This document shows, in pieces, positions 1 through 50,911 of a stretch of 64,000 nt of DNA. The position numbers and the translations under genes were made by a program. Each line of letters starts with the position of its first letter. The first letter of the stretch is position 1. Source of the stretch: Patescibacteria group bacterium (GTDB lineage Bacteria; Patescibacteriota; Patescibacteriia; JAXHNJ01); assembly GCA_034520665.1 (NCBI GenBank), contig JAXHNJ010000001.1, positions 194,579 to 258,578 on the forward strand, in the 5' to 3' direction. The notes beneath the pieces were generated by a model. The model made no database searches, had not been told where the DNA came from, and saw nothing but the letters and a program-made list of their open reading frames with translations.

Positions 1-1
1 A

Positions 2-241
2 ACTAAAAAAGAATCAGAAAAAATATTTAAAGCTGTTAAAAAAGTTTTAAAAAAATCCCTTAAATATGGCGGTACTTCAGCTGACGCTTATATTAATGCC
101 GAGGGAAAAGAAGGGGATTTTGAAAAAATGTTGTATGTTTATGGACGACGGGGCGAAAAATGTAAAAAATGCCAGGCTGAGATAAAAAGTATTAAACAGG
201 CCGGGCGCGGCACTTATTTTTGTTCTAATTGCCAGAAATAA
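2..241 (+). CDS. Fpg/Nei-family DNA glycosylase, C-terminal fragment (zinc finger); 5' end outside window
   Basis: Open frame from window edge ends ...CKKCQAEIKSIKQAGRGTYFCSNCQK*. The CxxC...CxxC zinc finger with RGT/RST-FC motif is typical of the MutM/Nei C-terminus. Confidence 0.55.
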   Translation, partial: TKKESEKIFKAVKKVLKKSLKYGGTSADAYINAEGKEGDFEKMLYVYGRRGEKCKKCQAEIKSIKQAGRGTYFCSNCQK

Positions 242-242
242 A

Positions 243-285
243 AAAAACCGGCTAAGCTATTTAAGCAGGTTTTTTTATTTTAATT
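243..285. terminator. putative intrinsic terminator between convergent genes
   Basis: Imperfect GC-containing dyad (ccggctaagc...aagcagg) followed by a T-run tttttttatttt. Confidence 0.3.
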
Positions 286-288
286 ATT

Positions 289-747
289 TTAAGGAATAAT
301 TAAGTAAAACATATAAGCTAAGACAATTCCAAGAATAAAGCCGACAATAACTTCAGCTAAAGTATGGCCAATATGCTTTTCTAGTCTTTTTGGAAATAAC
401 TGCCTTTCTTTTTTGGGATATTTTGCTATAATTCTTAGCAAGGCAATTGATTGGAAACTGATAATCTGCCGCATACCTAAAGCATCTCTAATAATGATTA
501 ATGAAAAAATTACGGTTACGGCGAAAATTGGACTGAAAATTCCTTCAGCTATACCGATAATTGTACAGAGAGAGGTAACAAAAGCGGTGTGGACTGAAGG
601 CATGCCCCCATAATCAAAGGTAATGTCAAGATTGAAATTAGCTTTCAAACCTCGGATTAATATTTTAATGGCAAAAGTAATAATGCCGACAATCAGAGGG
701 ATAATTAATAATTTAGGATAAACCATAAATGGATTATATTTACTCAA
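289..747 (-). CDS. divergent PAP2-family (DUF212/YuiD-like) membrane protein
   Basis: 152 aa with about 4 TM segments and a YGGMPSVHTAF motif characteristic of the acid-phosphatase/vanadium-haloperoxidase-related DUF212 family. True start may be the internal Met at 726, because 729-747 overlaps the uppP start. Confidence 0.55.
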   Translation of the reverse strand: MSKYNPFMVYPKLLIIPLIVGIITFAIKILIRGLKANFNLDITFDYGGMPSVHTAFVTSLCTIIGIAEGIFSPIFAVTVIFSLIIIRDALGMRQIISFQSIALLRIIAKYPKKERQLFPKRLEKHIGHTLAEVIVGFILGIVLAYMFYLIIP

Positions 748-1544
748 TTATTTACGGATTGGTGCAGGGTTTGACCGAATTTATACCGGTTTCTTCTTCC
801 GGACACCTGGTTATTATGCATCAGATATTTGATTTTGATTTTGTTAGTTCTCTTAGTTTTGATGTCATGCTTCACGCCGGCACTTTAGTAGCCCTGCTCA
901 TTTATTTCTATAAAGATATTATAAAATATATCGGCGCTTTTTTCAATAGTCTGTTAAAATGGCAGGTTAAAGAGAAACCAAATCAGCTTATTGCCTGGAT
1001 GATATTAATTGGCACCTTACCAGCTTTAGTCTTTGGTTTTTTTCTGGAAGAGATTGTAGAAAATTCCTTGCGCTCGCCGCTTTTGGTAGGATTGATGCTT
1101 ATCTTAGTCGGTTATTTGTTTATTTTATTTGAAAAAAGAACAAAAAAAATAAAATTATTATCTGAAAGCTCCTTTAAATCGGCCCTAATTATCGGATTTT
1201 TTCAAGTTTTGGCTCTTATTCCCGGCACTTCTCGCAGCGGCATTGCTATACTAGGCGGTCTTTCCCAAAAATTAAAAAGAGATCAAGCGGCTCGGTTTGC
1301 TTTTCTTTTAGCTATCCCAGTTACTTTAGGGGCCGTGGTTAAAAGAAGCGGCCGCTTATTATCATCTGATTTATTAACTCATGAATGGGTATTAATGATA
1401 TTAGCTTTTCTAGTGGCGGTTATAGCCGGATATTTGGTTATTCGTTTTTTATTAAAATTTTTAAAAACTCATTCTTTAAAAGTATTTGCTTATTACCGCT
1501 TTGTTTTGGGAATAATTATTTTAATATATTTTTTGATTAATTAA
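729..1544 (+). CDS. uppP: undecaprenyl-diphosphatase (UppP/BacA)
   Basis: 271 aa polytopic membrane protein with GLTEFIPVSSSGHL and PGTSRSG motifs diagnostic of BacA/UppP. Confidence 0.85.
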   Translation: MDYIYSIIYGLVQGLTEFIPVSSSGHLVIMHQIFDFDFVSSLSFDVMLHAGTLVALLIYFYKDIIKYIGAFFNSLLKWQVKEKPNQLIAWMILIGTLPALVFGFFLEEIVENSLRSPLLVGLMLILVGYLFILFEKRTKKIKLLSESSFKSALIIGFFQVLALIPGTSRSGIAILGGLSQKLKRDQAARFAFLLAIPVTLGAVVKRSGRLLSSDLLTHEWVLMILAFLVAVIAGYLVIRFLLKFLKTHSLKVFAYYRFVLGIIILIYFLIN

Positions 1545-1745
1545 AAAATTACCTAAATAATTATTTATTAAGAGAAAGGTTTGGATTTAGAGAGCCAGGC
1601 TTTTTATGATAGTGCTTGGCTTTTTGATTTGGTCTTTGTTCTAATTAAGAATCCCAACGCAGGCACGGAGAGTGGCGTTGGGTCTATGGGAGGCAGGGAA
1701 AAAAAGAGAAGAGAAGAATTTTTCTCATCGCTTAGGCAAAAGATT

Positions 1746-1778
1746 TATCTCTCTGGCGCCGGATTTATCCGGCGATTT
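1746..1778. repeat. module B: 33-bp element with palindromic core cgccggatttatccggcg; inverted copy at 10879..10910
   Basis: tatctctctggcgccggatttatccggcgattt is the exact reverse complement of 10879-10910 (aaatcgccggataaatccggcgccagagagat). Confidence 0.7.
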
Positions 1779-1908
1779 ATGTTTTGCTAATTGGTTATGG
1801 TTATAGCAGCTAGTAAGGTTTTGGTAGTGGGTTTGGAATAGAAAAACATTGACTCAGCCTAATAACCAAACTAGCGGCTCGGCCTAAAACCCTCTTTTTT
1901 GCTAATTG

Positions 1909-1963
1909 GTTTATACTGGCGGAGTAATCTTTTTAAAATGTCGCCACATGAATGTTGTGCCGG
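1909..1963. repeat. module A: ~55-bp element; inverted copy at 10927..10984 (~88% identical)
   Basis: gtttatactggcggagtaatctttttaaaatgtcgccacatgaatgttgtgccgg matches the reverse complement of cctggcgcaacatttatgtggcgaaattttaaaaaagatttatccgccagtataaaac. Confidence 0.65.
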
Positions 1964-2032
1964 GCTCTAAATTGTTTATAACTTTTCTGACACGGGATTT
2001 ATCTTGTGACGCAATTTTTAATAATTAAAAAT

Positions 2033-2070
2033 CTAGCGCAGGTCTTTTGTGCCTGCGCTAGGTTATCTTT
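2033..2070 (+). terminator. putative intrinsic terminator
   Basis: 10-bp perfect stem ctagcgcagg / cctgcgctag with a 9-nt loop, followed by a T-rich tail (gttatcttt). Confidence 0.45.
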
Positions 2071-2080
2071 ATAAATAACC

Positions 2081-2116
2081 AAAAATCCCTCTCAAGTGAT
2101 GAAAGGGATTTTTGTA
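2081..2116. terminator. bidirectional intrinsic terminator downstream of the 2135..3166 (-) gene
   Basis: aaaaATCCCTctcaagtgatgaAAGGGATttttt: 6-bp GC-containing stem flanked by an A-run and a T-run. Lies about 20 nt past the stop of the minus-strand gene. Confidence 0.6.
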
Positions 2117-2134
2117 TGGTATATCTATTTTAAC

Positions 2135-3166
2135 TTAGAATGTTGGTTCTTTAGGCTCTTCAAAGAATTTCTTAGGCCTAAACAGTGTGACCAGTATAGC
2201 CATAATGATTGCTACCCAGGGCCACCAGCCGTTAGTCTGACAGGAATATTCAAAATAAATCCAGAAAGCAGCTACAGTTAAGACTAAGGGGAAAAGCCAC
2301 CACCATTTATTTTTTGATTTTTTGACTAGGAAGTAATAACCAATTAAAACGCCAATATAAATAATGAGAATAATCAGCCACCAGGACCAGGCCAGGGGAG
2401 TACATTCATCGGAAGGGCTTTCTTCCTCTTCCTGGGCTTGAGCTTCTTCACTAACTCCGGCTACTTCACCTTCAGGCTCAGTTTCTTGTTCCTCTGATTC
2501 TGAGACTTCTTCTGTTTGAGCGGCTTGATTAGTGTTATTATTTACATTTTCTTCGGCTACCGGTGGCAGCAGGGTTTCTTCTTTGACTTCAATTTTTACG
2601 CTTTCAGAAATATTACTACTAGTGGCCATAATTTGACCCAAGCCAGTGTCTTTAGGCACAAATACACCTTCCTGGTTTATTTCGCCCAAGTTTCCTTCAT
2701 GAGAGAAGGTAAGTTCAGGATTTTCAATAGTATTGCCCATGACATCAAAAACTTTGGCTTCAAATTTTTGGCTTTGATTAAGATTAATTACTTCCGGCAT
2801 AGAGTTGGGATTAACCACAATAGAGTTAACTTCTCCGGAAATTACCTCAATTTCGTCTTGCGCGGCAAAGTTACCGTATTTGGCTTCAATTAGCCAGGAA
2901 CCGGCCTTGCCAGCTTGATAAACATTATCTTCAATAGAACCGCGTGGATCTTCAGTAATAAAAATAGCAAATTCAGAAATATCCCAGGTATTTTTCTGCT
3001 TATCCTGAGCTTTTAAGGTTAGATTAATAGTTTCTCCAGCCTTTATTTCCGCCGGAATATTAACCAGTTTGACCTGATCAATCCCTCCGTGTTCTTCCTG
3101 GGCTTGACTGGTAAGCGGAATAATAGCCAGACAAGAAATTAAGATAGTGAATAGCAGTTTTTTCAT
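2135..3166 (-). CDS. secreted/membrane-anchored surface protein (signal peptide, acidic linker, C-terminal Trp-rich TM anchor)
   Basis: 343 aa. N-terminal signal peptide MKKLLFTILISCLAIIPLTSQA, beta-rich domain, E/Q-rich acidic low-complexity linker, then 2-3 C-terminal TM helices rich in W. Immediately downstream of, and co-directional with, the giant gene; probably co-transcribed. Confidence 0.6.
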   Translation of the reverse strand: MKKLLFTILISCLAIIPLTSQAQEEHGGIDQVKLVNIPAEIKAGETINLTLKAQDKQKNTWDISEFAIFITEDPRGSIEDNVYQAGKAGSWLIEAKYGNFAAQDEIEVISGEVNSIVVNPNSMPEVINLNQSQKFEAKVFDVMGNTIENPELTFSHEGNLGEINQEGVFVPKDTGLGQIMATSSNISESVKIEVKEETLLPPVAEENVNNNTNQAAQTEEVSESEEQETEPEGEVAGVSEEAQAQEEEESPSDECTPLAWSWWLIILIIYIGVLIGYYFLVKKSKNKWWWLFPLVLTVAAFWIYFEYSCQTNGWWPWVAIIMAILVTLFRPKKFFEEPKEPTF

Positions 3167-3186
3167 AAGTATTTTTATTTTAATGG

Positions 3187-6100
3187 TTATTTTATACTGA
3201 TATCCTGTCTTTTTCTAAGCCGGTAAATTTGCATACCGCCAGCAGCCGTAAATAAGGTTAATAAGATATAGATGAAATTATAGAGATTCATACCCGCTTC
3301 AGCTAAGCCCAGCACCACGCCTTTCCTGACTTCTAGGGGAGCCGTGTCTGAAATATCTTTATGATTAACAGCAGTAACCACGGCTAAGTTGTCATAAGTG
3401 TTAGCCTGAACGTCAGCTCCTACCTTGACTTCATAATTAATCACTATTTCACTACCCGGAGCCATGTTGCCTAAGGTCCAAATTCTGACCGCGCTGTCAT
3501 CATAAGTAAAAGTAAAGCCTGCTGGTAATGTGTCAGTTAAAACTACGTCATAAGCTGTGGCTTCGCCAGTGTTAGTGACAGTAACTGTGTAATTAACCAG
3601 AGAATTAGGATTAACAAATTCCTGGTCAACTTCTTTTTCAATATTCAGAACCGGTTTGGCTTCTTCGCTTAAAACAGCTGGTATTCTAACCTCAAGAGTA
3701 ACGGAATCGTCAATTTTTTCATGGTTGTCAGCCCAGGTTTCAGCCAGGTTATCATAGAAGCCAGCTTCAACCTTGCCAACTGCTACTTGATAGTTCAAAT
3801 TAAAGTTCTCGCCCGGTGTTAAATCGCCAAGTTCCCAAGTGTGTGTGGCCAGGCCAGTGCTGACAAAAGTAAAGCCGTCCGGAAGAGTGTCTTCAAGTAT
3901 AACGTTATAAGCGGTTTCATTACCAGTATTTGAGATATTAACTGTGTAAGTAGCCACATTGCCCGGATTGGCAAAAGTTAAGTCAACTGATTTTTCTATA
4001 CCAAGGATTGGGCCAGACACAATAGTGGTCTCTTCATCAGCTGTGGTTTCATCAGTTTCATCAGAGTCGAGCACGGCTGTGTTATTAATCACAGTATTAT
4101 TGACTAAGCCTTCATTAGCAGTAACCGTAATGTCAAGCGTGCCCGTATCACCTGGGTTTTTAGTATCCAAGTTCCAACTGACTGTATGATTAGCTTGGTC
4201 ATAAGTATAAGTCTCAGAAGCGGAGACAAAGCTGACTTCGCTAGGCAGGTTATCTACTAAAGTTAAATTATTAACGGAATCATTACCGCCAACAGACCAA
4301 GTTAGGGTATAGGTAAAGTCTTTACCCGGAGCCACTGGGTCTTTACTGTCAATTTTATCTAGACCAATTTCGTAGATCAATTTTTGGTTACCAAAGTTAT
4401 TATTTCTACTAACTATACCAGAGGCAATAGTAATAGCAGCCGGAGCCATAGTTTGTCTCCAACCTTCTTGCGTGGTTTCAGTTAAATTATATTGACCGGC
4501 TTCCAGGTCAGTAAATTCATAATAGCCGTTTTCATTTGTAGTAGTACAAGTATTTTCATCCAAACAAATTTCCCAGCCCTGGAGAGCCTCTTCACCTTCA
4601 TCCCACTCAGAATTATTATTAACATCTTCAAATTTATAACCAGAAATTAGTCCCAATTTAAAGTTACCGAAGATAACTTCATGGGGTTGGCCGGATTTAA
4701 CCTCAACCTCATATTCAGTGCCGGTTATGGCCATAAAATCACTGTTTAGAATTTCTTTAACTGTATAAGTGCCTGGTTCAAGATTAGTCCAAGTATAGGA
4801 GCCATCGGCGCCAGTTACTTGATTATCACCAACTTGAACTTCACCTTGCCAGAGCTGAACAGTCCAGCCGGGTTTAGGAGTTCGATCATTATCTGTTTTC
4901 CATGATCCATCGGCATCAATATATTTGTAAGCAGTTATGCTGGCGTTTTCAAAGTTACCAAAGTCAAAATCACCATCTTTTACATCTACTCCAGAAACAG
5001 CTTCAAAGTTATAACTACCTGTCAAAGGGTAGGTTTGGGTCCAGCCTTCTTTAGTTTCTTCGGTTATATTATAACTACCTGGACCAATATCGATATAAGT
5101 AACACAACCGTTTTCATTGGTCGTTTTTTCTTGTTCATTAAGATAAACATTCCAGCCTTGATTGTAGACTGAATCATTTTCTATATTACCGTCACCGTTT
5201 TTATCAATATATTTACAGACGGTGACATCTATGTTTTGGAAATTACCAAAGTCATTACCAGTACTTTTATCATTGATGCCTAAAGTAATAACACTCGGAG
5301 CTAAAGTCTGAGTCCAGCCGGGTTTAAGGGTCTCTTCTAAGATATAACTGCCGGCGGATAGGTTATCAAATTCATAATAGCCATTAGCGTTAGTAGTGGT
5401 AGTGTCTAAAACCGGATTTTCTGTAGGCATATTCTCAGGAGTATTTTGATAGACCTTTTCAAAACATTTAGTGTCATAATTATCTAAATTACCATCACCA
5501 TTTAAATCAACTTTCTGGCTAGCAAAGGCGCCAAAGTCTGAAAGACCAATTTTATTATCCTTACTATAGTCATCGCCTGCTAAATTATAATCATCAAAGT
5601 TTTCTGAACAAGCAGAATATAATTTAATTTCCCAATCATCTAAAGCCGGTTCATCATTATCCCAAACATGGTTACCATTAATATCTTCGAATTTATAGCC
5701 GGTGATTTTACTGGCGTTGGCTGTGTTGGTAATGGTGCAGGTAACATCATCATCTTTTTCCAGGGTAATTTCATTGCCTTCTAAAGTTTTATTATTACAA
5801 ATCCATTTAGAGGCGGTATAACCTTCAATTTCACTTGATTCAGAAAGGGTATAAGTGCCGGTTAGAACCTCACCATGAGCCAAGCCATTTCCTTCAATTG
5901 TGGAAAGATCTTCACTGGTGGCTTTAAGTTTCCAGTCAATAGCTTGGGCCGTGCCGCCATTAGAATTATCTACTTGTTTAATTAAAGTTAAGTCGGCTGT
6001 GTTGCGGGCATTGCAAAGGGTGATTTCAATCCCGTCAGTGGTCACACCCAGTTTAGCTGGCAGTGTTCTGTACTCAGTAGTTTCACAGGTATAAATAGAG

Positions 6101-7893
6101 CCGTTTACATACCAGCCGGCAAAGTGATAATCATCAACATTATTTTCCGTGATATTGTAATTACCGGTAACAACAGATTCTTCGCTACCCATTAATTTAT
6201 CAAGAGTTTCACCTTCAAAACCCCATTGGAAGTTAAGGTTATTTGCTTTCGTGTTGTCGCCTTCAAATATTCCGTCGCCGTCAGCATCTACTTTTTTGTT
6301 TACTTTAATTTTACCGGTATCGCGGGTGTTGGTAAAAGTGCAGACGATGCCGTCGGTGGTTAAATCAATCTGTCTTGATTCAACTGCTCCATAAGATTGA
6401 TCATTGCAGGTTAAATCAGTGACATGATAATCATTTTTTTGTTTTTCAGAAATGGTATATAAACCAGTTTCTAAAGTTCGGCTGGAACCAGTAGTAATAT
6501 CTTGTTCACCATTTTGAATATTCCAGCTCCAATTTGTGGCTCCGATAATATCTTCGGGGTCATCAAGGTCGCCGTCGCCGTTTTCGTCAACATTTTTATA
6601 AACGATAAATTCTGCTGTGTTTCTGGTATTAGTGATTGTGCAAACCTTATTCTCACTGTTACCAACTGTTACATTTCCCTGAGCATCGCAATCACCAGAA
6701 ATTACTGATGTATAATTTGAAAGGTCGGTGTTAGTACCAGCATTTTCTGAGACAACATAATTTCCAACACTTACAGTTTGAGCACCAGTTGTTCCTCCAT
6801 TACCAACGTTTGTTCCTGTACCAGCTACTACACCGTCGATCATCAAGTTAAATAATCCTGTGTCATTACTAGGCACTAATACTTTGTTAACAGTAAGTGT
6901 TCCATTGCATGGTGTAGTAACAGTAGTTTCTACAATCTTAGAATCTAAACCGTTTGGCAGTTGGTCAGCATAAATTGTGCCGTAGTTGTAAATTGTTTCA
7001 TCTGAACATATTGGTAGCTCATCTACTGTAACTTTAAATTTTACCCAACCGGTTTCGCCCGGTGTTAGAGTACCGGCATTCCAGCTTAGAAGTGATCCGT
7101 CAAAGCCAGGATTATTAGCTCCGAATTTTTCACTTGAATATCCGAAATTAACATTTTCGCTTTGATCATGCCAATTAGCGTAAGTAGTTAAAGCAGGAAT
7201 ATAATCATCAACTCTTACTCCACCGCCGGTACAATTAGTTTTTCCAGCGTTATTAAAATTAAGAGTATAAAGCAAAGTATCACCTGGAAGAGCAGTTGGT
7301 TTATCAACTGTTTTTTTGATTTCTAATTGACAAAAATCACCCAAACAATCTGGTCCAGGCATTACTCTGTTATCATTTTTATTAGCATATTTTACATAGC
7401 CGTGAGCGCCGGTTTGGTCAGTTCCAAAGATTGTGTTAATTGTAAAACTAACTATTTGAGTTTCATTTGAACCCTCTTCGGTAAAGCTAAGTTCAGAAAT
7501 ATCCCATTGAATAACATTATTAACATTAATAGAACCGTCATAAATAGAACCGTCATACTTAATCCACTCACCGCCGTTAGGTGATGTGCTAATCAGATGG
7601 TTTTTTACATCTTCGCAAACTTTTAGTGAAACGTGACTAACTTGCTGGGCTTTATCAATTTCATCGATTCGATAAGTCCAAGTTTGGTTAGTATCGTCGT
7701 CGGCAACTCCTACAAAATTCCATTCATAATGTCCTTTAGGTTCATCTAATTGAATTGCCCTAGCCTGGCTTGGCTGTATCAGGGCTCCTACCATAGACAT
7801 ATTTAATAATAAGGCTAACATTAGAAAAATGTTAAGACTTTTGACAAGCTTGGTTTTGATAGATTTTTTTGGTAATAAATTGATTTTTACCAT
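3187..7893 (-). CDS. giant cell-surface repeat protein (Cna-B/SdrD-B-like and DUF11-like repeats, C-terminal membrane anchor)
   Basis: 1568 aa with N-terminal signal peptide. It has at least four repeats of the type GYKFEDxNGNxxWDxxExxLxGWEIxL/Y (SD-repeat B / Cna-B-like fold) and three DUF11-like repeats (NxxTYTVxIxNTGNxTAYxVxLxDTLPxGFTFV). The C-terminus is ...GLAEAGMNLYNFIYILLTLFTAAGG...RLRKRQ: a hydrophobic stretch plus a basic tail, resembling a sorting-signal-like anchor. Confidence 0.75.
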   Translation of the reverse strand: MVKINLLPKKSIKTKLVKSLNIFLMLALLLNMSMVGALIQPSQARAIQLDEPKGHYEWNFVGVADDDTNQTWTYRIDEIDKAQQVSHVSLKVCEDVKNHLISTSPNGGEWIKYDGSIYDGSINVNNVIQWDISELSFTEEGSNETQIVSFTINTIFGTDQTGAHGYVKYANKNDNRVMPGPDCLGDFCQLEIKKTVDKPTALPGDTLLYTLNFNNAGKTNCTGGGVRVDDYIPALTTYANWHDQSENVNFGYSSEKFGANNPGFDGSLLSWNAGTLTPGETGWVKFKVTVDELPICSDETIYNYGTIYADQLPNGLDSKIVETTVTTPCNGTLTVNKVLVPSNDTGLFNLMIDGVVAGTGTNVGNGGTTGAQTVSVGNYVVSENAGTNTDLSNYTSVISGDCDAQGNVTVGNSENKVCTITNTRNTAEFIVYKNVDENGDGDLDDPEDIIGATNWSWNIQNGEQDITTGSSRTLETGLYTISEKQKNDYHVTDLTCNDQSYGAVESRQIDLTTDGIVCTFTNTRDTGKIKVNKKVDADGDGIFEGDNTKANNLNFQWGFEGETLDKLMGSEESVVTGNYNITENNVDDYHFAGWYVNGSIYTCETTEYRTLPAKLGVTTDGIEITLCNARNTADLTLIKQVDNSNGGTAQAIDWKLKATSEDLSTIEGNGLAHGEVLTGTYTLSESSEIEGYTASKWICNNKTLEGNEITLEKDDDVTCTITNTANASKITGYKFEDINGNHVWDNDEPALDDWEIKLYSACSENFDDYNLAGDDYSKDNKIGLSDFGAFASQKVDLNGDGNLDNYDTKCFEKVYQNTPENMPTENPVLDTTTTNANGYYEFDNLSAGSYILEETLKPGWTQTLAPSVITLGINDKSTGNDFGNFQNIDVTVCKYIDKNGDGNIENDSVYNQGWNVYLNEQEKTTNENGCVTYIDIGPGSYNITEETKEGWTQTYPLTGSYNFEAVSGVDVKDGDFDFGNFENASITAYKYIDADGSWKTDNDRTPKPGWTVQLWQGEVQVGDNQVTGADGSYTWTNLEPGTYTVKEILNSDFMAITGTEYEVEVKSGQPHEVIFGNFKLGLISGYKFEDVNNNSEWDEGEEALQGWEICLDENTCTTTNENGYYEFTDLEAGQYNLTETTQEGWRQTMAPAAITIASGIVSRNNNFGNQKLIYEIGLDKIDSKDPVAPGKDFTYTLTWSVGGNDSVNNLTLVDNLPSEVSFVSASETYTYDQANHTVSWNLDTKNPGDTGTLDITVTANEGLVNNTVINNTAVLDSDETDETTADEETTIVSGPILGIEKSVDLTFANPGNVATYTVNISNTGNETAYNVILEDTLPDGFTFVSTGLATHTWELGDLTPGENFNLNYQVAVGKVEAGFYDNLAETWADNHEKIDDSVTLEVRIPAVLSEEAKPVLNIEKEVDQEFVNPNSLVNYTVTVTNTGEATAYDVVLTDTLPAGFTFTYDDSAVRIWTLGNMAPGSEIVINYEVKVGADVQANTYDNLAVVTAVNHKDISDTAPLEVRKGVVLGLAEAGMNLYNFIYILLTLFTAAGGMQIYRLRKRQDISIK

Positions 7894-7984
7894 TGTTTAT
7901 TCTCCTTTTAATTTAAGTTAATTTGGTTAATTTAGTATATTAAGTTGATTGTTGTTTTGATTAGGTTCCTCGCATTACTCGGGA

Positions 7985-8200
7985 TGACACTAAAGCGTCA
8001 ATTGTTAGATTAGCCAATTTTTCAGCGCCTCTTTTTAACTATTTGAGAGTATTTCGGCTTGAAAATTGTAGAGTAGATCCCGTCACTCGCTCTTCTACAA
8101 GCTCAGAGCTCGGACGGGATTGTTAGATTAGCCAAATTTTGTTCGCTCATTTTTTATTAATGAAATTTATTGAGCTCCAAAATTTTGCTAATCTAACAAA
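7985..8200. promoter_or_regulatory. upstream control region of the giant surface-protein gene with repeated gttagattagccaa motif (two direct copies, one inverted) and an 8-bp dyad
   Basis: attgttagattagccaa(t/a)tttt occurs at about 8003-8018 and 8122-8137. Its reverse complement ttgctaatctaaca occurs at about 8176-8190. A dyad gatcccgtc...gacgggat lies at about 8066-8110. Confidence 0.4.
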
Positions 8201-8460
8201 AAAACCAACAGAAAGCAAATAATTTTTAAAAATGCATAAAATAAGACCTTTTTCTCTCCTCTTTTTTGATCCTCTCTCCTTTTTTAGACCTTTTATTTAC
8301 TTTTTGTTGGTTTTAAACCTTTCCTCCTGATAGGTTTTATAAAAGAGCGTATGAAATTGTGTACCAAAGAGCGATTAATATATGTTTTCCCTCCTAATAT
8401 GTAGAAAAAAGAGCTATTTAAGTTTTTTTATCTTAGTTCATTTCTCATAATTTGTCAAGT

Positions 8461-8500
8461 AAAAAGGAGCCGTTCCATATTTCTTAATAAAACGGCCCCT
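8461..8500 (-). terminator. intrinsic terminator of the CAP-domain gene
   Basis: On the minus strand: GGGGCCGTT-ttattaagaaatatgg-AACGGCTCC followed by TTTTT. Confidence 0.6.
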
Positions 8501-8557
8501 TTGGATGGGAATTTGATTACTTTTATCTGAAATATATTAGACTTGTGGATAACTCTA

Positions 8558-10027
8558 TTACATATAGGGCACGATTAAAGTTAAAATAAAAAACAGAAAA
8601 GAAAGAAATGAATCAACTTTTTTCTTTTTAATAAGATGCTGCTCATGGTGCCAAATATGCCAGAGCTTAGGAGTCATGATAGCAATTTCGGCTAAAAATA
8701 GTATTATCAATAAAGAAAGGATTTTTGAGCTGTGTTTAACGTCTTTTACTCCTTTAACCTGACTGTTGATAGCCAAGCGGGTATTTTGATTATAATTATA
8801 AGCTAATTTTACATTTTGACTGTTGTAAGAGCGGTCTTCAAAAGTAAGCGCTTGATAATTTTTAAAATTATGAGGCAGAAATTGGTTTTGGTTCTGTTTT
8901 ATAAAAAGATTATTTTTAAAGTAGTGAAAACGAATGGTCTGGTTGTTTTTGATCAGAACCAGTCTTTCAGTGGCTGGAGAAGCAGCTACAAAAAGATTGT
9001 ATTGATTTAGATTAACTGGGTCCGGAAAAAAGAAGTAATTAGTTATGTGAAGATTTTTATTAGTAGTAAGTTTTGCTGGTTCAGGTGAATTCATCTTTTG
9101 CTGATCTTGTGGCTTGACTTCAGGGACAGAATTTTTGCTCTCTTTATTTTCAACTGGTGGCTGGTTATTTTCTAAAGCAATTACTTTTTTATCTTCTTCT
9201 TTTGTTTGAGTATCGCTTTGATTATTTTCCGGTTTTTTATTTTCTTCTTGTTTTTCAACTTGAACAGCTGGAGCCGGTTTGGGTTCCGGGGTTTCTTCTT
9301 GGTGAGTAATTGTTGATTCAGTCGTGCTGGCTGTGGCAACAACCGGAGGACTTGAAATAGCCTTATCCTGATGGCCAAACATCTGGACAATTAAAATGGT
9401 TGAGTGTCCCTGCAGTTTTCCATTAAGTACAGCCACGCCAATTTCATCATAATCAGAACTTAAAATATTTTCTCGGTGAGTGGGCGAAGCCATCCAGCCT
9501 TGCATGGCCCCGGAAGCGGAAGAAAAATCCATAGCCAAATTTTCACCGGCAAATTTATAGTCGTAACCGGATGAGTGAATAAAATCCCAGGGTTTTTTCC
9601 CGTCAGGTGCGAAATGGGCAAAGTAATCATCGGCTAGCATATCCTTGGCCTTGGCAACGGCCGCCTGGGTGAGATTGGAATTAAGTTTAAGCTGGGGTAA
9701 ATTATGATTAAGCCGTTCTTGGTTAGTCAGATTAATAATGGTCTGGCTGTCAATACCTTGACCAAAAGAAACAAAAGGAAGAAGTAAAAGAGTAGCCAGA
9801 AGCAGGCTGCTCAAACATTTGGCTAGATGAATTTTTTTAAAAAGATGGAAGGGATGTTTTAATTCTTTAAATCGGTTCCCGGGAGTCTTTAGACGAAAAT
9901 GGCCGCCTTTATTTTCAGCCATTAAAAAAGGTACTACTTCCACCTCCTTGTATTTGTTTTTCATTTTTGTTTTTATTTTGGCAAAAAAGGTGATAATAAA
10001 AAAAAGCGTTTTTTGACAAAAACACAA
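8558..10027 (-). CDS. secreted CAP/SCP (YkwD-like) domain protein with P/T/E/K-rich linker and C-terminal TM segment
   Basis: YkwD/CAP signature block NQERLNHNLPQL...YFAHFAPDG...GENLAMDFSSASGAMQGWMASPTHRENIL...GVAV. The longest ORF overlaps its own promoter-like sequence (TTGTCA...tattat); the likely start is Met22 (9964) or Met36. Confidence 0.7.
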   Translation of the reverse strand: MCFCQKTLFFIITFFAKIKTKMKNKYKEVEVVPFLMAENKGGHFRLKTPGNRFKELKHPFHLFKKIHLAKCLSSLLLATLLLLPFVSFGQGIDSQTIINLTNQERLNHNLPQLKLNSNLTQAAVAKAKDMLADDYFAHFAPDGKKPWDFIHSSGYDYKFAGENLAMDFSSASGAMQGWMASPTHRENILSSDYDEIGVAVLNGKLQGHSTILIVQMFGHQDKAISSPPVVATASTTESTITHQEETPEPKPAPAVQVEKQEENKKPENNQSDTQTKEEDKKVIALENNQPPVENKESKNSVPEVKPQDQQKMNSPEPAKLTTNKNLHITNYFFFPDPVNLNQYNLFVAASPATERLVLIKNNQTIRFHYFKNNLFIKQNQNQFLPHNFKNYQALTFEDRSYNSQNVKLAYNYNQNTRLAINSQVKGVKDVKHSSKILSLLIILFLAEIAIMTPKLWHIWHHEQHLIKKKKVDSFLSFLFFILTLIVPYM

Positions 10028-10499
10028 TTTTTATAGACCCTTATAGGAAAACAAATTTTTCTAGCCAAGACACTAAATTTTGATTATACTTTTTTGTTTA
10101 TGACCTCCCGTATGCTGTACTCATGATAATGGGGGGTAGTATTTTCTATATTTTTGTTTTTGTTTTTAGTATCTTTACTATGCAGTAAGTATAGCATAGA
10201 TTTGGAGAAAAGTCAATCCCAAATCCATTATAGTCTCACACCATTTACTCTCTTAATAAAAATTTAATGGCAAGAAGGCTAGACGGAGATAAATCTTTTG
10301 CCTACTTCAAAGTTTAGAATAATTCGGGTAGAGGCGAGCTCTTTTTATTATAAATACTAAAATAATTTTCAAAAAGCTAAATTCTCTAAAATTATTAATC
10401 TGTCTTCATTAAAGAATCATTTAAATAATAATTTTTAAAACTAGAATATTTATAATCTTCCGGACTTTTAAAGCTTTTTTAAAAGACGCTATTATTTTA

Positions 10500-10720
10500 T
10501 CGCGAGAAGAACTGGTCTCCAGACCTGTTCTGGCAATATATTTACTAAGCTCAAGGTCGAGTGACTCGAGAAGGTTGGATCTCCTGATCCAACCGAATAA
10601 GGTGGCGCGGATCAGGAGATCCGCGCTTCTCGGGTAATTTTAAGGGCTTCCTTGACAGTTTGTTTTATACTAGGTAGAGGCAGGTCATGGCTCGCCTCTA
10701 GGCCTGGTTCATTAATATTA
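10500..10720. other. highly structured intergenic element (nested and mutually exclusive hairpins); candidate ncRNA or regulatory/recombination site
   Basis: gaactggtct/agacctgttc dyad. An outer stem cgagaag/cttctcg encloses two 9-bp hairpins, ggttggatc-tcct-gatccaacc and gcgcggatc-agga-gatccgcgc. Their loops and stems can alternatively pair with each other: ggatctcctgatcc is the reverse complement of ggatcaggagatcc. A further dyad is tagaggc/gcctcta. Confidence 0.35.
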
Positions 10721-10878
10721 AAAATAAATTTAAACAAAAGCATAATATTTGAATATTTAATATATAGCGGGAATAGGGATTCCTATCTACGCAGCTTTAT
10801 TTAAACGCAGAGATAAGTCCTTGCTTTTGCGAAAACAAACCTCTTCATCCGCGTAGCTGGAGATTTATCTCCAGATTC

Positions 10879-10910
10879 AAATCGCCGGATAAATCCGGCG
10901 CCAGAGAGAT
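10879..10910. repeat. module B' (inverted copy of 1746..1778)
   Basis: See module B. Confidence 0.7.
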
Positions 10911-10926
10911 TAGAATAATATTATTT

Positions 10927-10984
10927 CCTGGCGCAACATTTATGTGGCGAAATTTTAAAAAAGATTTATCCGCCAGTATAAAAC
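10927..10984. repeat. module A' (inverted copy of 1909..1963)
   Basis: See module A. Confidence 0.65.
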
Positions 10985-11077
10985 TTAACCCCATAAATCT
11001 CTTGATTCATTATACAGACTTTCGCTTGCTTCAAAAGGTAAAATAAGGTAAATTATAAATATAGATAAACAAAACTT

Positions 11078-16501: not shown

Positions 16502-17308
16502 ATGGAAAACATTAAAACTCAGAGCGAGGCCTTAATTGACGACGGCCAAAGACGGAAGTTTAAAAATCTAAGAATTTTTAACTTAGTCATGTTCTTTTTT
16601 CACGCGGTTCAAGGGGTTTTAATGCTGATTTTATCTTCTGATTTTGCTTTACCAGTAACTTCCAGTTTTGTGGAAATGAATCAAGCCACTAGTAAACTGG
16701 CCCCTGTTTTAAAGACCGAATTTACTTTAGAAATTGGGCCACTGGTGGCTGGATTTTTGTTTTTGTCAGCTCTGGCTCATTTATTAGTATCCACGGTTTT
16801 TTATAAGTGGTATGTTAGAAATTTAAAGAAGGGGATAAATCCGGCCCGTTGGATTGAGTATTCTTTTTCAGCGTCTTTAATGATTGTGGTTATTTCTATG
16901 TTAGTTGGTATTTATGATGGTGTGGCTTTAATTTTAATTTTCTTTTTGAACGTTATGATGATTCTTTTTGGCTGGGTCATGGAAGTGCATAATCAAACCA
17001 CAAAAAAAACCAATTGGCTTTCTTATATCTTTGGCTGTCTAGCCGGCGCTATTCCCTGGATAGCTATAGCCATTTATTTATTCAGTGCCGGCGAAGGGGA
17101 TAACAAGGCGCCGACTTTTGTCTACTGGATTTTCTTTTCTATCTTTATTTTCTTTAATATTTTTGCCATTAATATGATTTTACAGTACAAAAAAACTGGT
17201 AAATGGAGAGATTATCTTTTTGGCGAGAAAGTTTATATTATTTTAAGCCTGGTGGCCAAGACACTTTTAGCCTGGCAGGTTTTTGCTGGTACTTTAAGGC
17301 CAGTGTAG
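16502..17308 (+). CDS. heliorhodopsin (7-TM retinal protein)
   Basis: 268 aa, 7 TM. Segments closely match the heliorhodopsin 48C12 sequence as I recall it: RWIEYSFSASLMIV, MILFGW, GCLAGAIPWIAIAIYLF, ILSLVAKTLLAWQVFAGTLRPV (Schiff-base Lys in SLVAK on TM7). Confidence 0.8.
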   Translation: MENIKTQSEALIDDGQRRKFKNLRIFNLVMFFFHAVQGVLMLILSSDFALPVTSSFVEMNQATSKLAPVLKTEFTLEIGPLVAGFLFLSALAHLLVSTVFYKWYVRNLKKGINPARWIEYSFSASLMIVVISMLVGIYDGVALILIFFLNVMMILFGWVMEVHNQTTKKTNWLSYIFGCLAGAIPWIAIAIYLFSAGEGDNKAPTFVYWIFFSIFIFFNIFAINMILQYKKTGKWRDYLFGEKVYIILSLVAKTLLAWQVFAGTLRPV

Positions 17309-19682: not shown

Positions 19683-21962
19683 TTATAGATTTATAGTAAT
19701 TTCAAATAGTTTAGAGCTGGCCAGGAGGAAGGCTTTACTATTATCTTCGTCAACCGAAAAATCTTTTAAGTCATTAAATTGGTCAGAAAAATATTGGTTA
19801 ACTAGGTTACCTTGTTTATCAAACTGAACCAATCTTTTATTTTGATTATCTAAAATATAAATATAATTTGAGTCTTCACTGGTCCAGACTTTCTCAGCTG
19901 AAGATAAAGCTGGGTCAATAATATCTAACGAGAAATCTTGTTCATAGCCCTGAAAGAGTTCAAGCAATTGGCCGTTTGATTTTAGTAAATATATTGAGCC
20001 GTCAATAACCAGAGAAACCCCGTCTTGTATATTTAAATCCGGATCTCTGATCCAAGCCGTGCTCGGACCAAAGCCAACTGTGCCGCGTTGGTGGCGATAA
20101 ATTTGGTTTGACTGACTATCTAGATAATAAAAGCGTGAGCGGTAAACAGCTAAATCTTGTACATTCATATTTTCTTGCGGAAAATCAATAGTTAAAGGTG
20201 TCAGTACCCCGGTATTTTTATTAAGCTCAACCATACCTGGATTATTATCATAGAGTAGGACCGTGGAGGTAGTTTCCTGGACCATTTTTTGAAACTGACC
20301 AATATCCGTTAAGTTATTTTCAATGGTAATTACTTCGTTGCGGGTTAAATCAATTTCGTAAATATTATTATTAGCATTAATTAAATAGGCAAAGTCTCCA
20401 GCTTGAACCAGAGAGCTGACCGGAGAATAATTTTCTAATTCAGAAAAATCTTTTTTTAGTATAGGATTATCCACATTAACCACGTGAAGTGTTTTTTGGT
20501 ATTCTTTTTCAATTCCGGTTTCTAATTCAGAATAAGTGGCCTTTTCTTCCTTGGATTTATTAGGCAGCTGGGCCAACAAGTCACGAGCCTGACCAAGAAG
20601 TTCTTTAGCTCCTCGCTCATCTTCATAGCTTAAAGCAGCTCCAGCCTCAAAGGTTAAGTCTTGGATTTGCCTGATTATTTCGGCTTCTCTTTCGGCTGAT
20701 AATTTATTGTCATTCTGCCAGCCCAGGTAAACTATACTAGTGGCAAAAATAAAAAGTATTATCAAGGCAATGATCAGAGTTTTCTGAGCTTTTTTGGGAA
20801 GACGGCGAAAACGGAAAATGCCGCTGTGAATTTTACTCTCAGTTTTTTCTGGAATTTCTTTGAGTTTATTTTTAATAGTTTTAGGTTTTCTAAAAAGATT
20901 AAACAAAGCCCAGAAAAGACTGGCTAATCCCTGAGCTAGCCATTTTATACCTTTTGATAGGTAATTAAAAATATTTTTTAAATAATTTTTACCTGGCTTG
21001 GGTTTTTTTATCTTTTTTTCAGGAGAGTAGTATGAAGAATCCGGCAAAGATCTTTTAGGCCCTTTTTTTAGCACTTTTTTACGGTAAATACTACCTAAGA
21101 CGGAAAAACTTTTTTTTATTGATTTAAAGAATTTAGGAAAAACTGAGGGTGAAAGATACTCTGAAGTTTTTTCTTCTTGACTTCTCAAATCCTGCATAGA
21201 AGCCTGAGGTGGGGTATATGAAGAGGAAAGAGCTGTATCGGAAGGACGACGAGATATATCTTTCTGCTCGGGCAGTTTTTCCGGGGTTGGTACCAGCTTG
21301 GAGACAATAGCGCCAAAAGAAGTGGCCGCATTGGCTTCAAGAAGAATTTTTTCCAGTTCTTTTGTTGAGTCAGAAGGTAAAGTATTAGAAATCACTCTTT
21401 TTAATTTTTCCTGCGAGAAATAATCAAGAAGAGAGGTAGTGCAGAAAAGAAGCTGATCTCCGGGATTAACATTACCTTCAATGATATTGGAAAATATTTT
21501 TAAAGGATTTATTTTTGCCCGTGGTTGTGAAGTTTTGGTAATGATATCAATAATTTTATCGCGGTGAATTAAAAAAGCATGAATACGGCCGATATGAGCT
21601 AAATATATTCTGGTACCGTGAATAACAGCAATAATAATATTAAACTTATCCAACCAGTTAGTGATGCCTTCGGAAATAATATGGTGCAGAGCTTGATTAG
21701 TTTTCGACAAAGCATTTTCAAAAGCGGCCTCAACATTTGTCTCCTCAGAATAATAAAAATGATTCTTTAGTTCTTGCTGAATAATATTTATGATCTCCTG
21801 GTTTATTTTTTCTTCAGAATCAATTTCACATATAACAAAGAGGCGTCCCAGATTTTTTTCTTCCAAAGGAGTGGGGCGTGATAAGAAAATATGAGTAGTA
21901 CTCCGGGATTTATCCGGATCATAAATTAGTAATTGGTCAACTTCGGCTTTAGCTTTTGACAT
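19683..21962 (-). CDS. membrane-anchored PP2C-family (SpoIIE-like) Ser/Thr phosphatase with large C-terminal extracytoplasmic domain
   Basis: The N-terminal ~230 aa show a PP2C-like pattern (...IIIAVIHGTRIYLAHIGRIHAFLI...NPGDQLLFCT...). One TM helix (LIIALIILFIFATSIVYLGW) is followed by a ~370-aa C-terminal domain of unknown function. Confidence 0.45.
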   Translation of the reverse strand: MSKAKAEVDQLLIYDPDKSRSTTHIFLSRPTPLEEKNLGRLFVICEIDSEEKINQEIINIIQQELKNHFYYSEETNVEAAFENALSKTNQALHHIISEGITNWLDKFNIIIAVIHGTRIYLAHIGRIHAFLIHRDKIIDIITKTSQPRAKINPLKIFSNIIEGNVNPGDQLLFCTTSLLDYFSQEKLKRVISNTLPSDSTKELEKILLEANAATSFGAIVSKLVPTPEKLPEQKDISRRPSDTALSSSYTPPQASMQDLRSQEEKTSEYLSPSVFPKFFKSIKKSFSVLGSIYRKKVLKKGPKRSLPDSSYYSPEKKIKKPKPGKNYLKNIFNYLSKGIKWLAQGLASLFWALFNLFRKPKTIKNKLKEIPEKTESKIHSGIFRFRRLPKKAQKTLIIALIILFIFATSIVYLGWQNDNKLSAEREAEIIRQIQDLTFEAGAALSYEDERGAKELLGQARDLLAQLPNKSKEEKATYSELETGIEKEYQKTLHVVNVDNPILKKDFSELENYSPVSSLVQAGDFAYLINANNNIYEIDLTRNEVITIENNLTDIGQFQKMVQETTSTVLLYDNNPGMVELNKNTGVLTPLTIDFPQENMNVQDLAVYRSRFYYLDSQSNQIYRHQRGTVGFGPSTAWIRDPDLNIQDGVSLVIDGSIYLLKSNGQLLELFQGYEQDFSLDIIDPALSSAEKVWTSEDSNYIYILDNQNKRLVQFDKQGNLVNQYFSDQFNDLKDFSVDEDNSKAFLLASSKLFEITINL

Positions 21963-32405: not shown

Positions 32406-32473
32406 GTTTGATTAATTAATCAAAAATAGCTATAATTAAGGCATAATTTTATACGGTTCAAAACTTTCACAAT

Positions 32474-32532: not shown

Positions 32533-32641
32533 AAGTCGAATTTTTTCTTCTGCTAAAAATTTAAATCTCTAATATATATTTCCCACGCAAAGAAGCGCGC
32601 TAACTACAAACTTAATTGAAGTTTTAGAAACCTTTATAAGA

Positions 32642-50890: not shown

Positions 50891-50911
50891 TTCTAATTTT
50901 TTCTCAAATAT

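What the first reader, a model, noticed from the sequence alone, without database searches (positions are those of the whole stretch)
1746..10984. Giant surface-protein locus bracketed by two pairs of inverted sequence modules
Module B (1746-1778) is the exact reverse complement of 10879-10910. Module A (1909-1963) is ~88% reverse-complementary to 10927-10984. Both pairs flank the 9-kb segment that holds the three minus-strand surface-protein genes (CAP-domain, 1568-aa giant and 343-aa partner) with their promoter and terminators. Each module is individually inverted and the B-then-A order is kept on both sides, so this is not one simple long inverted repeat. B has a palindromic core cgccggatttatccggcg, and the octamer GATTTATC recurs six times in the two flanks. 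The possibilities are recombination sites for inversion or exchange of the surface-protein locus, shared operator or terminator modules, or footprints of a mobile insertion.
Basis: seen in the sequence. Interest (0 to 1): 0.6.

Follow-up and report, generated by a model that had tools for sequence, protein, structure and literature searches.

The report
Decayed REP-transposase remnant flanking surface locus
The inverted modules around the surface-protein genes are real, but they are small hairpin repeats (REP-like) left by a now-dead REP-associated transposase gene in the right flank. They are not part of the surface-protein locus, which sits at this position in related genomes without them.

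Summary
B (1747-1778) is the exact reverse complement of 10879-10910, A matches its partner at 86%, and I found a third exact pair, C (1733-1751 / 10286-10304). All modules are built from one hairpin unit: a 7-bp stem of variable but complementary sequence, a TTTA loop and a GATTTATC centre. The covariation is strong. Between C' and H3/B'/A' in the right flank lies a decayed gene (about 10398-10849, minus strand) for a REP-associated tyrosine transposase (RAYT, HUH/Y1). Two GTAG-tagged units face it from either side, which is the layout of a REPtron. B' and A2' fold together like a REPIN doublet.

Relatives without this gene (L018, L020, L021) have no modules, yet keep the same surface-protein locus, in the same orientation, between uppP and pcm. 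So the locus is ancestral and is not a mobile insertion. Relatives L012 and L013 carry the RAYT or its GTAG hairpins on the uppP side in the opposite orientation, so the element has been rearranged.

The operon's predicted promoter and its terminators lie inside every repeat pair, and I found no recombinase. I found no evidence of active switching. Verdict: a fossil REP/RAYT cluster in a Patescibacteria genome. Genome-wide copy number could not be tested.

The parts
1733..1751 (+). Module C (left): TAGGCAAAAGATTTATCTC, a half REP unit with a TTAG tag. It is fused to B through the shared ATCTC.
   Evidence: Exact reverse complement of 10286-10304 (I24).
1747..1778 (+). Module B (left): REP-like unit with hairpin CGCCGGA-TTTA-TCCGGCG at 1757-1774.
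   Evidence: 32/32 reverse complement of 10879-10910. Hairpin covariation. Flagged as terminator-like.
1782..1911 (+). 15-nt direct repeat TTTTGCTAATTGGTT (1782-1796 and 1897-1911) around a 100-nt hairpin-forming insert. The insert splits an otherwise compact B-A cluster.
   Evidence: 15/15 direct match; fold.
1910..1963 (-). Module A (left) = A1 (1910-1938) plus A2 (hairpin CACAACA-TTCA-TGTGGCG at 1942-1959, read on the minus strand).
   Evidence: 86% to 10927-10984. A2 aligns with B as the same hairpin unit.
1990..2007 (+). H4: hairpin CACGGGA-TTTA-TCTTGTG (two G-T pairs), next to the operon terminators.
10286..10304 (-). Module C' (right): GTAG-tagged unit (GTAGGCAAAAGATTTATCTC on the minus strand), about 95 nt 3' of the decayed RAYT gene.
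   Evidence: The homologous unit is present in L012.
10398..10849 (-). Pseudogene of a REP-associated tyrosine transposase (RAYT, Y1/HUH). It has stop codons and frame shifts, lacks about 25 aa including the catalytic-Tyr region, and the HUH motif is unrecognisable.
   Evidence: tblastn of P0121-P0128. The stitched translation aligns colinearly to P0123 residues 81-202, E 9e-12. Intact relatives pass NCBIfam NF047646. The 5' limit at 10849 is inferred.
10564..10635 (-). Palindromic doublet (GGATC-NNNN-GATCC, twice) inside the RAYT reading frame, encoding GSPDP...DQEIQPS.
   Evidence: I10. 91% identical to L013 5637-5702, against 67% for uppP. Found only inside RAYT genes in the DNA fetched. 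Half of it is GTGG-tagged.
10853..10874 (+). H3: GTAG + CTGGAGA-TTTA-TCTCCAG, a canonical GTAG-tagged REP-like hairpin. It ends 8 nt before the inferred start of the RAYT pseudogene, and its tag faces the gene.
   Evidence: The only perfect GTAG-tagged hairpin in the window. 26/26 identical in L012.
10879..10910 (-). Module B' (right).
   Evidence: Exact reverse complement of 1747-1778.
10927..10984 (+). Module A' (right) = A2' (hairpin CGCAACA-TTTA-TGTGGCG at 10931-10948) plus A1' (10954-10984). B', a 16-nt spacer and A2' fold as one long hairpin (REPIN-like doublet).
   Evidence: -45.5 kcal/mol, z = -5.4.
2135..10027 (-). The bracketed operon: 343-aa membrane protein, 1568-aa DUF11/SpaA/SdrD surface protein and 489-aa CAP-domain protein. 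This is context, not part of the repeat system.
   Evidence: Orthologous locus in L013, L018, L020 and L021.

Best explanation
The modules are REP-type (repetitive extragenic palindrome) hairpin units, and the right flank is a degenerate REPtron: a RAYT gene flanked by its REPs. Each unit has a 4-nt tag (GTAG in H3 and C', CTGG or CTGA in the others), a 7-bp stem whose sequence varies but stays complementary, and a conserved TTTA loop closed by GA/TC. That closure is why GATTTATC recurs. By analogy with characterised systems, such hairpins form in single-stranded DNA and are bound, cut and rejoined by the HUH/Y1 enzyme RAYT, which copies them locally into doublets and small clusters. This step is inferred, not shown here. 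In this genome the enzyme gene has decayed, so the units are fossils. One cluster (H3-B'-A2'-A1') and one unit (C') flank the dead gene. A second compact cluster (C/B-A1-A2-H4) sits in the next intergenic gap, 9 kb away. 'Same order, each module inverted' is what results when two clusters are excerpts, in opposite orientation, of an alternating array of oppositely oriented units: the reverse complement of the right cluster reads A-B and the left reads B-A, a circular permutation. This accounts for B and A but not for C, whose position fits no circular permutation. The surface-protein operon lies between the two intergenic regions the repeats colonised, which looks incidental. The repeats may now act as neutral DNA, as extra terminator or mRNA-stabilising hairpins, or as substrates for rare inversion. 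That last sentence is inference.
For: The hairpin family shows covariation: 91.8% of cells paired, 5 of 7 pairs with changes on both sides, 0 of 500 shuffles as good, and slid controls at 22-61%. The RAYT pseudogene lies exactly between C' and H3. Its intact relatives P0122, P0123, P0124 and P0127 score 103-118 bits on NCBIfam NF047646 'REP-associated tyrosine transposase' (cut-off 80). Their best solved-structure match is E. coli TnpA-REP 4ER8, with the HUH and YI.NPV motifs aligned. GTAG-tagged units face the gene from both sides, the layout described for REPtrons (PMC8266576, PMC3733652). B'-A2' folds as a REPIN-like doublet. In L013 the homologous RAYT gene ends in GCTGGAGATTTATCTC. In L012 the same H3 (26/26) and C units lie 39 nt apart with the gene gone. 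Relatives without the RAYT gene (L018, L020, L021) have none of the modules but keep the operon. A described group-3 REP (Marinomonas REP_Mb) likewise has GTAG, a short perfect palindrome and a TTTA loop, with its copies concentrated next to the transposase gene.
Against: High copy number, a defining property of REPs, was not seen: the units occur only in the two flanks within 64 kb plus 4.8 kb of adjoining DNA. The rest of the genome could not be searched, and the pattern scans of the public collections returned only chance hits. Only H3 and C' carry GTAG; B, A2 and H4 do not. The window's remnant gives no hit to the NCBIfam model, and its N-terminal half is assigned by position only. Intact RAYTs of this subfamily in L015 and L017 have no such hairpins next to them. 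C also keeps the same order on both sides, which the alternating-array argument does not explain. No enzymology was done.
Confidence: 0.7

Rival explanations
1. This is an active invertible element (an inverton or shufflon-like system). The GATTTATC-centred sites would be crossover sites for a site-specific recombinase, and the 9-kb surface-protein segment, alone or with the RAYT segment, would flip between orientations in the population.
For: Three inverted pairs are exact or nearly so (32, 19 and about 55 nt). All sites share a 6-8 nt asymmetric centre flanked by inverted arms, a geometry like tyrosine-recombinase sites. The C/B fusion at ATCTC and the L013 hybrid site look like arm exchange. 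The RAYT element lies on opposite sides of the locus, in opposite orientation, in the window versus L012 and L013. H4 and C' form an inverted 9-nt pair that tightly brackets the operon.
Against: The predicted promoter and the terminators are inside all pairs, so flipping should not switch expression. No tyrosine or serine recombinase was found among the 33 window proteins scanned with Pfam. The arms vary with compensatory changes, which indicates a folded single strand rather than a protein-read duplex. The operon orientation is the same in the window, L013, L018, L020 and L021. The differences are between species-level relatives, not within one population. The 455-kb source contig runs through both B copies unbroken.
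Confidence: 0.1
2. This is the remnant of an autonomous IS200/IS605-type insertion sequence rather than a domesticated RAYT/REP system. About 700 bp (10286-10984) would be one dead IS with subterminal hairpins, and the left-flank modules would be a second, more eroded copy or solo ends.
For: The C'-to-A1' span is about 700 bp, the size of IS200. B and C carry GATTTATC on the gene's sense strand, as IS200/IS605 ends do. The proteins also give weak hits to the IS200 model NF033573 and to IS608/ISDra2-type structures. A C|B junction on the left resembles a right-end/left-end circle or tandem junction.
Against: The intact relatives score above the cut-off only on the REP-associated model, not the IS200 model (24-30 bits against a cut-off of 55). 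They sit as single genes in conserved housekeeping synteny after uppS. There is no transposase remnant in the left flank. The module order on the left is not that of an inverted or direct second copy.
Confidence: 0.1
3. The 9-kb surface-protein segment is itself a mobile island or composite transposon, delivered between uppP and pcm, and the modules are its terminal repeats.
For: Inverted repeats lie at both ends, a transposase remnant lies at one end, and GC content is slightly higher (37% in L002 against 34% for the window).
Against: Orthologous operons occupy the same position and orientation in relatives that lack the modules. In L021, uppP is followed by 59 nt and then the convergent 343-aa homologue. 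In L018 and L020 the CAP gene and its leader lie next to pcm. The module order is not mirrored as terminal inverted repeats would be, and there are no target-site duplications at the outer edges.
Confidence: 0.03
4. The modules are shared regulatory sites (operators for one transcription factor) or transcription terminator/attenuator modules serving the flanking genes.
For: B on the plus strand scores as a terminator-like hairpin after uppP. The palindromic shape resembles a dimer-binding site. REPs are known to be co-opted as terminators or mRNA stabilisers (PMC3733652).
Against: The modules are not conserved at the orthologous intergenic positions in L018, L020 and L021, where the true terminators (2030-2114) and the CAP leader (9957-10211) are conserved. 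Stem sequences differ between units, so no single operator sequence exists. There are no Rfam matches.
Confidence: 0.07

Closest known systems
REPtrons: RAYT (TnpA-REP) genes flanked by GTAG-tagged REPs, especially group-3 types such as Marinomonas sp. MWYL1 REPtron Mb and S. maltophilia REPtron Sm (PMC8266576, PMC3333891)
   Same: A Y1/HUH RAYT-family gene is flanked on both sides by short stem-loops in inverted orientation with GTAG at the gene-proximal end. The stems are short and perfect or nearly perfect. The loop is TTTA, as in REP_Mb. Copies are concentrated near the gene rather than spread out.
   Different: The gene here is a pseudogene. Only 2 of about 6 unit types carry GTAG. Only two clusters are seen in 64 kb. 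The host is a Patescibacteria (CPR) genome, a group not listed among the REP-bearing phyla in the papers read. Activity was not tested.
REPIN doublets and BIME clusters of E. coli and Pseudomonas (PMC3116915, PMC3733652)
   Same: Two related but non-identical units in opposite orientation, separated by a short spacer (B'-16 nt-A2'), can fold as one long hairpin. The clusters mix singletons and dimers, with heterodimers whose stems differ.
   Different: Those families have tens to hundreds of dispersed copies. Here copies are known only beside one locus, and one cluster is interrupted by a 100-nt insert.
IS200/IS605 insertion sequences (IS608, ISDra2)
   Same: The catalytic family is the same, and so is the logic of subterminal hairpins read on one strand with a 4-nt guide 5' of the hairpin. 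The size is about 700 bp.
   Different: The protein relatives fall in the REP-associated model, not the IS200 model, and occur as single copies in conserved synteny. No complete second copy is present.
Invertible phase-variation segments and shufflons (fimS, Hin/Gin, R64 shufflon, Bacteroides invertons)
   Same: Exact short inverted repeats bracket a surface-protein locus, and there are several sites in both orientations sharing a common core.
   Different: No recombinase gene was found. The predicted promoter is internal. Arm sequences are not conserved between sites. Both orientations were not demonstrated.

Membership tests
REP (repetitive extragenic palindromes) | Short (about 20-40 nt) imperfect palindrome able to form a stem-loop | tested here: met
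   7-bp stem plus TTTA loop in B, A2, H3 and H4. 91.8% of cells paired, 5 of 7 pairs with compensatory changes, 0 of 500 shuffles as good.
REP (repetitive extragenic palindromes) | Conserved GT[AG]G tetranucleotide at one end | tested here: inconclusive
   GTAG directly precedes H3 (10853) and C' (minus strand), and the same units in L012. Left C has TTAG, B and A2 have CTGG/CCGG, and H4 has CTGA.
REP (repetitive extragenic palindromes) | Extragenic location | tested here: met
   All units lie in the 1545-2134 and 10028-11077 intergenic regions.
REP (repetitive extragenic palindromes) | High copy number dispersed over the genome | tested here: not met
   Within the 64-kb window plus 4.8 kb of L001, the units occur only in the two flanks.
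REPtron (RAYT gene with flanking REPs) | REP units flank a RAYT gene on both sides in inverted orientation | tested here: met
   H3 (tag facing the gene, 8 nt upstream of the inferred start) and C' (tag facing the gene, about 95 nt downstream) bracket the pseudogene at 10398-10849. The same pair occurs in L012 with the gene deleted.
RAYT / TnpA-REP (NCBIfam NF047646, Pfam PF01797) | Profile match above the curated cut-off | tested here: not met
   The stitched window translation gives no hit. It is assigned through pairwise homology to P0123 (E 9e-12, colinear over residues 81-202) and tblastn. Relatives P0122, P0123, P0124 and P0127 pass with 103-118 bits against a cut-off of 80.
RAYT / TnpA-REP (NCBIfam NF047646, Pfam PF01797) | Intact HUH motif and catalytic tyrosine (Y-I-x-x-N-P-V) | tested here: not met
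   In the window the HUH region is unrecognisable, the tyrosine region is deleted, and stop codons are present. It is a pseudogene. L013's copy is also truncated before the tyrosine.
Invertible phase-variation element / shufflon | Inverted repeats bounding the segment | tested here: met
   B/B' 32/32, C/C' 19/19, A/A' 86%.
Invertible phase-variation element / shufflon | Inversion changes promoter-gene or coding connectivity | tested here: not met
   The predicted promoters at 10256-10188 and the terminators at 2030-2114 are inside all pairs. These are predictions only.
Invertible phase-variation element / shufflon | Cognate site-specific recombinase encoded nearby | tested here: not met
   None was found among the three locus proteins and 30 further window ORFs scanned with Pfam. 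Smaller ORFs and the rest of the genome were not scanned.
Invertible phase-variation element / shufflon | Both orientations present in one population | not testable with these tools
   No read data were available. The Logan k=31 contigs break at the 32-nt repeat whether or not inversion occurs.
Composite transposon / genomic island | Segment absent from the same site in relatives (empty site), with mirrored terminal repeats | tested here: not met
   The operon is present between uppP and pcm in L013, L018, L020 and L021. The module order is not mirrored.

The most novel reading that the evidence does not exclude
The GATTTATC hairpins are, or recently were, working recombination sites of an HUH/Y1 (RAYT-type) enzyme that can relocate or flip DNA segments. 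On this reading, a REP/RAYT system in a reduced CPR genome drives structural variation around a cell-surface operon. The three arrangements seen in the window, L012 and L013 would be states of one shuffling system rather than unrelated accidents.
Probability: 0.08. Interest if true: 0.65.

Novelty: new member of a known kind. Interest (0 to 1): 0.3.

Why it matters
If this reading is right, the finding is mostly a clean-up. A suspicious bracket of inverted repeats around a giant surface-protein operon turns out to be the debris of a REP/RAYT system, not a switch or an island. That prevents a wrong annotation.

Two smaller points have some value. First, REP-like hairpins and RAYT genes occur in Patescibacteria, small genomes where such repeats are not usually discussed. 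The lineage captures several stages of decay: an intact gene (L015, L017), a truncated gene with one hairpin (L013), a pseudogene with clusters (the window), and a hairpin pair with the gene gone (L012). That bears on ideas about how REPINs outlive or die with their transposase. Second, the exact 32-nt and 19-nt inverted copies are plausible substrates for inversion of a 9-kb surface locus, which read data could test cheaply.

Tried and rejected
- **Rfam.** The gathering-threshold scan of the whole window and permissive scans of both flanks gave nothing meaningful. There are no tRNA or tmRNA genes that could mark an integration site.
- **Public-collection scans.** A degenerate B/A2 pattern run against genome contigs and metagenome contigs gave 4 and 5 chance hits in unrelated, mostly GC-rich genomes. 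None showed similarity to the window. Two viral scans found nothing.
- **Exact look-up of Pcm.** Not on record.
- **Second transposase remnant.** None in the left flank or the middle intergenic region.
- **Further similarity.** The 100-nt insert (1797-1896) and the 1545-1732 stretch show no significant match to the right flank, L012 or L013.
- **GATTTATC hairpins beside intact RAYT genes.** None in L015 or L017.
- **Tyrosine-recombinase site reading (6-6-6 geometry).** I considered this and set it aside, because the arms covary instead of being conserved.
- **Integron attC and Xer/dif sites.** Considered from memory only. There are no R'/R'' core sites or 11-6-11 arms, and I did not pursue them.
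- **Operator or terminator modules.** Rejected on lack of conservation in relatives.
- **L012 as proof that the operon itself is inverted.** I first read it that way and then withdrew it. The 54 nt that follow C in L012 match window 10253-10305, a stretch that L018 and L020 do not share with the CAP leader. It probably belongs to the RAYT element rather than to the operon promoter.

Full report
**Observation.**
- Module B (1747-1778) is the exact reverse complement of 10879-10910 over 32 nt.
- Module A (1909-1963) matches the reverse complement of 10927-10984 at 50 of 58 aligned columns, with three indels.
- The core CGCCGGATTTATCCGGCG occurs nowhere else in the window, and none is expected by chance.
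- GATTTATC occurs 16 times against 4.5 expected, seven of them in the two flanks.
- I found a third exact inverted pair, C = TAGGCAAAAGATTTATCTC, at 1733-1751 and 10286-10304 (I24). On the left it overlaps B by ATCTC. On the right it lies 575 nt from B'.
- So three modules keep the same left-to-right order on both sides while each is inverted.
- The bracketed genes are as described: a CAP-domain protein, a 1568-aa DUF11/SpaA/SdrD protein and a 343-aa membrane protein.
- Predicted promoters at 10256-10188 (minus strand) and a pair of terminators at 2030-2114 lie inside all three pairs.

**What the modules are made of.** All of them contain copies of one unit: a 7-bp stem, a TTTA loop, and closing pairs that give GATTTATC.
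- The stems differ between units but stay complementary: CGCCGGA/TCCGGCG (B), CGCAACA/TGTGGCG (A2'), CTGGAGA/TCTCCAG (H3, 10857-10874) and CACGGGA/TCTTGTG (H4, 1990-2007).
- On an alignment of seven units, 91.8% of cells pair and 5 of 7 pairs change on both sides. No shuffle out of 500 does as well, and slid controls give 22-61%.
- This is the signature of a folded single strand, not of a fixed protein-binding duplex.
- The G-T pairs fall on the ATTTAT strand.
- A2 is a diverged B in the opposite orientation. As a result B', a 16-nt spacer and A2' fold as one long hairpin (-45.5 kcal/mol, z = -5.4).
- No Rfam family matches.

**The gene in the right flank.**
- The source is an NCBI Patescibacteria MAG contig of 455,760 nt.
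- A relative with 66% identical UppP (L013) carries, directly after uppP, a 180-aa PF01797 Y1-transposase gene that ends in GCTGGAGATTTATCTC.
- tblastn with this protein and its homologues hits the window's minus strand at 10631-10563 (EKRGSPDPRHLIRLDQEIQPSRV) and 10496-10398 (NNSVF*KSFKSPEDYKYSSFKNYYLNDSLMKTD).
- A stitched translation aligns colinearly with residues 81-202 of the intact homologue P0123 (E 9e-12).
- The N-terminal half, the HUH motif and the catalytic-tyrosine segment are lost or unrecognisable, and the remnant gives no hit to the family model.
- The intact homologues P0122, P0123, P0124 and P0127 pass NCBIfam NF047646 'REP-associated tyrosine transposase' at 103-118 bits against a cut-off of 80. 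They fall below the cut-off on the IS200 model.
- Their best solved relative is E. coli TnpA-REP, 4ER8.
- So 10398-10849 (minus strand) is a RAYT pseudogene. The 5' limit is inferred.

**REPtron anatomy.**
- H3 reads GTAG + CTGGAGATTTATCTCCAG. It is the only perfect GTAG-tagged hairpin in the window and ends 8 nt before the pseudogene's inferred start codon.
- On the other side, C' reads GTAG + GCAAAAGATTTATCTC on the gene's strand.
- Both tags face the gene, so two REP-like units in inverted orientation bracket a RAYT gene. This is the published definition of a REPtron (PMC3333891, PMC8266576, PMC3733652, PMC6006769).
- The closest described analogue is the Marinomonas group-3 REP_Mb: GTAG, a short perfect palindrome, a TTTA loop, and copies concentrated next to the transposase gene.
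- B, A2 and H4 lack GTAG (they have CTGG or CTGA), so the tag criterion is only partly met.

**Comparative evidence.**
- L021 (63% UppP) has uppP, then 59 nt with a terminator, then the convergent homologue of the 343-aa gene.
- L018 (79% Pcm) and L020 (72% Pcm) have the CAP gene and its conserved leader pointing away from pcm, as in the window.
- None of these three has a RAYT gene or any module.
- So the operon is ancestral at this position and in this orientation. The modules are neither its regulatory elements nor the ends of an island.
- In L013 the truncated RAYT gene lies between uppP and the 343-aa gene, on the plus strand.
- In L012 (87% UppP), after uppP and a pilin gene come H3 (26/26 identical, against 80% for the adjoining uppP region), 39 nt, and then GTAG + C. 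This is the same REP pair with the gene deleted, and it is in the orientation opposite to the window.
- So the RAYT element lies on the uppP side in two relatives and on the pcm side, inverted, in the window, while REP units remain on the uppP side in the window.
- Rearrangements have therefore occurred, but their path cannot be reconstructed from these short contigs.

**Why the order is kept.**
- The reverse complement of the right cluster reads A1-A2-B, and the left reads B-A1-A2. That is a circular permutation.
- REP clusters are typically alternating arrays of oppositely oriented units. Two excerpts of such an array taken in opposite orientation show 'same order, each inverted'.
- If the 100-nt insert bounded by the 15-nt direct repeat (1782-1796 / 1897-1911) is removed, the left cluster is as compact as the right one.
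- This argument covers B and A but not C, which remains unexplained.

**Limits.**
- I could not count copies genome-wide. The source genome is not in the searchable collections, and within 64 kb plus 4.8 kb the units occur only here.
- Orientation heterogeneity is untestable without reads. Logan contigs from SRR26473340 reproduce window 1-1776 and 1855-10370 exactly and break at B, as a k=31 graph must.
- No recombinase was found among the 33 window proteins scanned with Pfam.

**Verdict.** This is a degenerate REP/RAYT (REPtron-type) repeat system in a Patescibacteria genome, lying on both sides of an ancestral surface-protein operon. It is ordinary in kind. It has modest interest for its host lineage and for the visible stages of decay across relatives. 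A small residual chance remains that the exact inverted copies mediate inversion.

Noticed in passing
window 10564-10635; L013 5637-5702; L015 2328-2373; L016 418-463; L017 3386-3399: A palindromic doublet (GGATC-NNNN-GATCC, twice; one half GTGG-tagged) sits in frame inside RAYT genes of this subfamily and encodes GSPDP...DQEIQPS. It is 91% identical between the window and L013, where uppP is only 67% identical. It is absent from the homologue P0124. It looks like a REP-like element living inside the transposase gene.
   Followed up: partly
window 8001-8041, 8119-8159, 8179-8199 (inverted); L013 786-854; L020 4732-5056: A repeat family, ATTGTTAGATTAGCCAA(A)TTTT, lies in the 660-nt gap between the CAP gene and the giant gene. 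It is conserved at 86-93% in L013, at a different place, and the surrounding gap is conserved at about 68% in L020. It could be a regulatory or small-RNA element of the operon.
   Followed up: no
window 38578-38659, 40725-40778, 41665-41718, 41843-41868, 46470-46523, 52626-52698, 53461-53514, 55178-55250: A GC-rich intergenic repeat family (for example ...ACAGCGTATGCGGTTCGGG.CTCGGCTCGCCCCTC..., CCCGCCAGAGGCGGGCAGGCA) recurs between plus-strand genes in an otherwise 34% GC window. Unlike the GATTTATC units, it is dispersed across this stretch of the window.
   Followed up: no
window 50702-50892, 60297-60486, 57682-57780, 32454-32545: About 190 nt of upstream sequence is repeated at 93-95% identity before two genes, with partial copies before two others. 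It contains an internal TCGTATAATAA...TTATACGA inverted motif.
   Followed up: no
window 1782-1911: A 100-nt hairpin-forming insert (1797-1896) is flanked by a perfect 15-nt direct repeat, TTTTGCTAATTGGTT, and splits the left REP cluster. It may be a separate miniature insertion with a target duplication.
   Followed up: partly
window 1855 and 10370 (ends of Logan contig L002): The independent Logan assembly of SRR26473340 breaks at 1855 and 10370. No repeat is visible in the window at either point. The cause is unexplained and could be coverage, strain variation or an alternative junction.
   Followed up: partly
window 16502-17308: A heliorhodopsin gene (PF18761, E 3e-103).
   Followed up: no
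L018 1720-2100: In the relative with 79% identical Pcm, the gap upstream of pcm holds a tandem duplication of about 177 nt instead of the RAYT remnant. An extra 324-aa gene also sits between the conserved promoter/leader and the CAP gene.
   Followed up: no
window 21901-21918; L019 10470-10487: TCCGGGATTTATCCGGA lies near the 5' end of the 759-aa minus-strand ORF and is conserved at the orthologous place in L019. It contains the same octamer but is probably unrelated coding sequence.
   Followed up: no
window 42062-43210 and 58408-59706: A Fic/DOC-family gene and an AbiEii-type toxin gene lie in the repeat-rich right half of the window.
   Followed up: no
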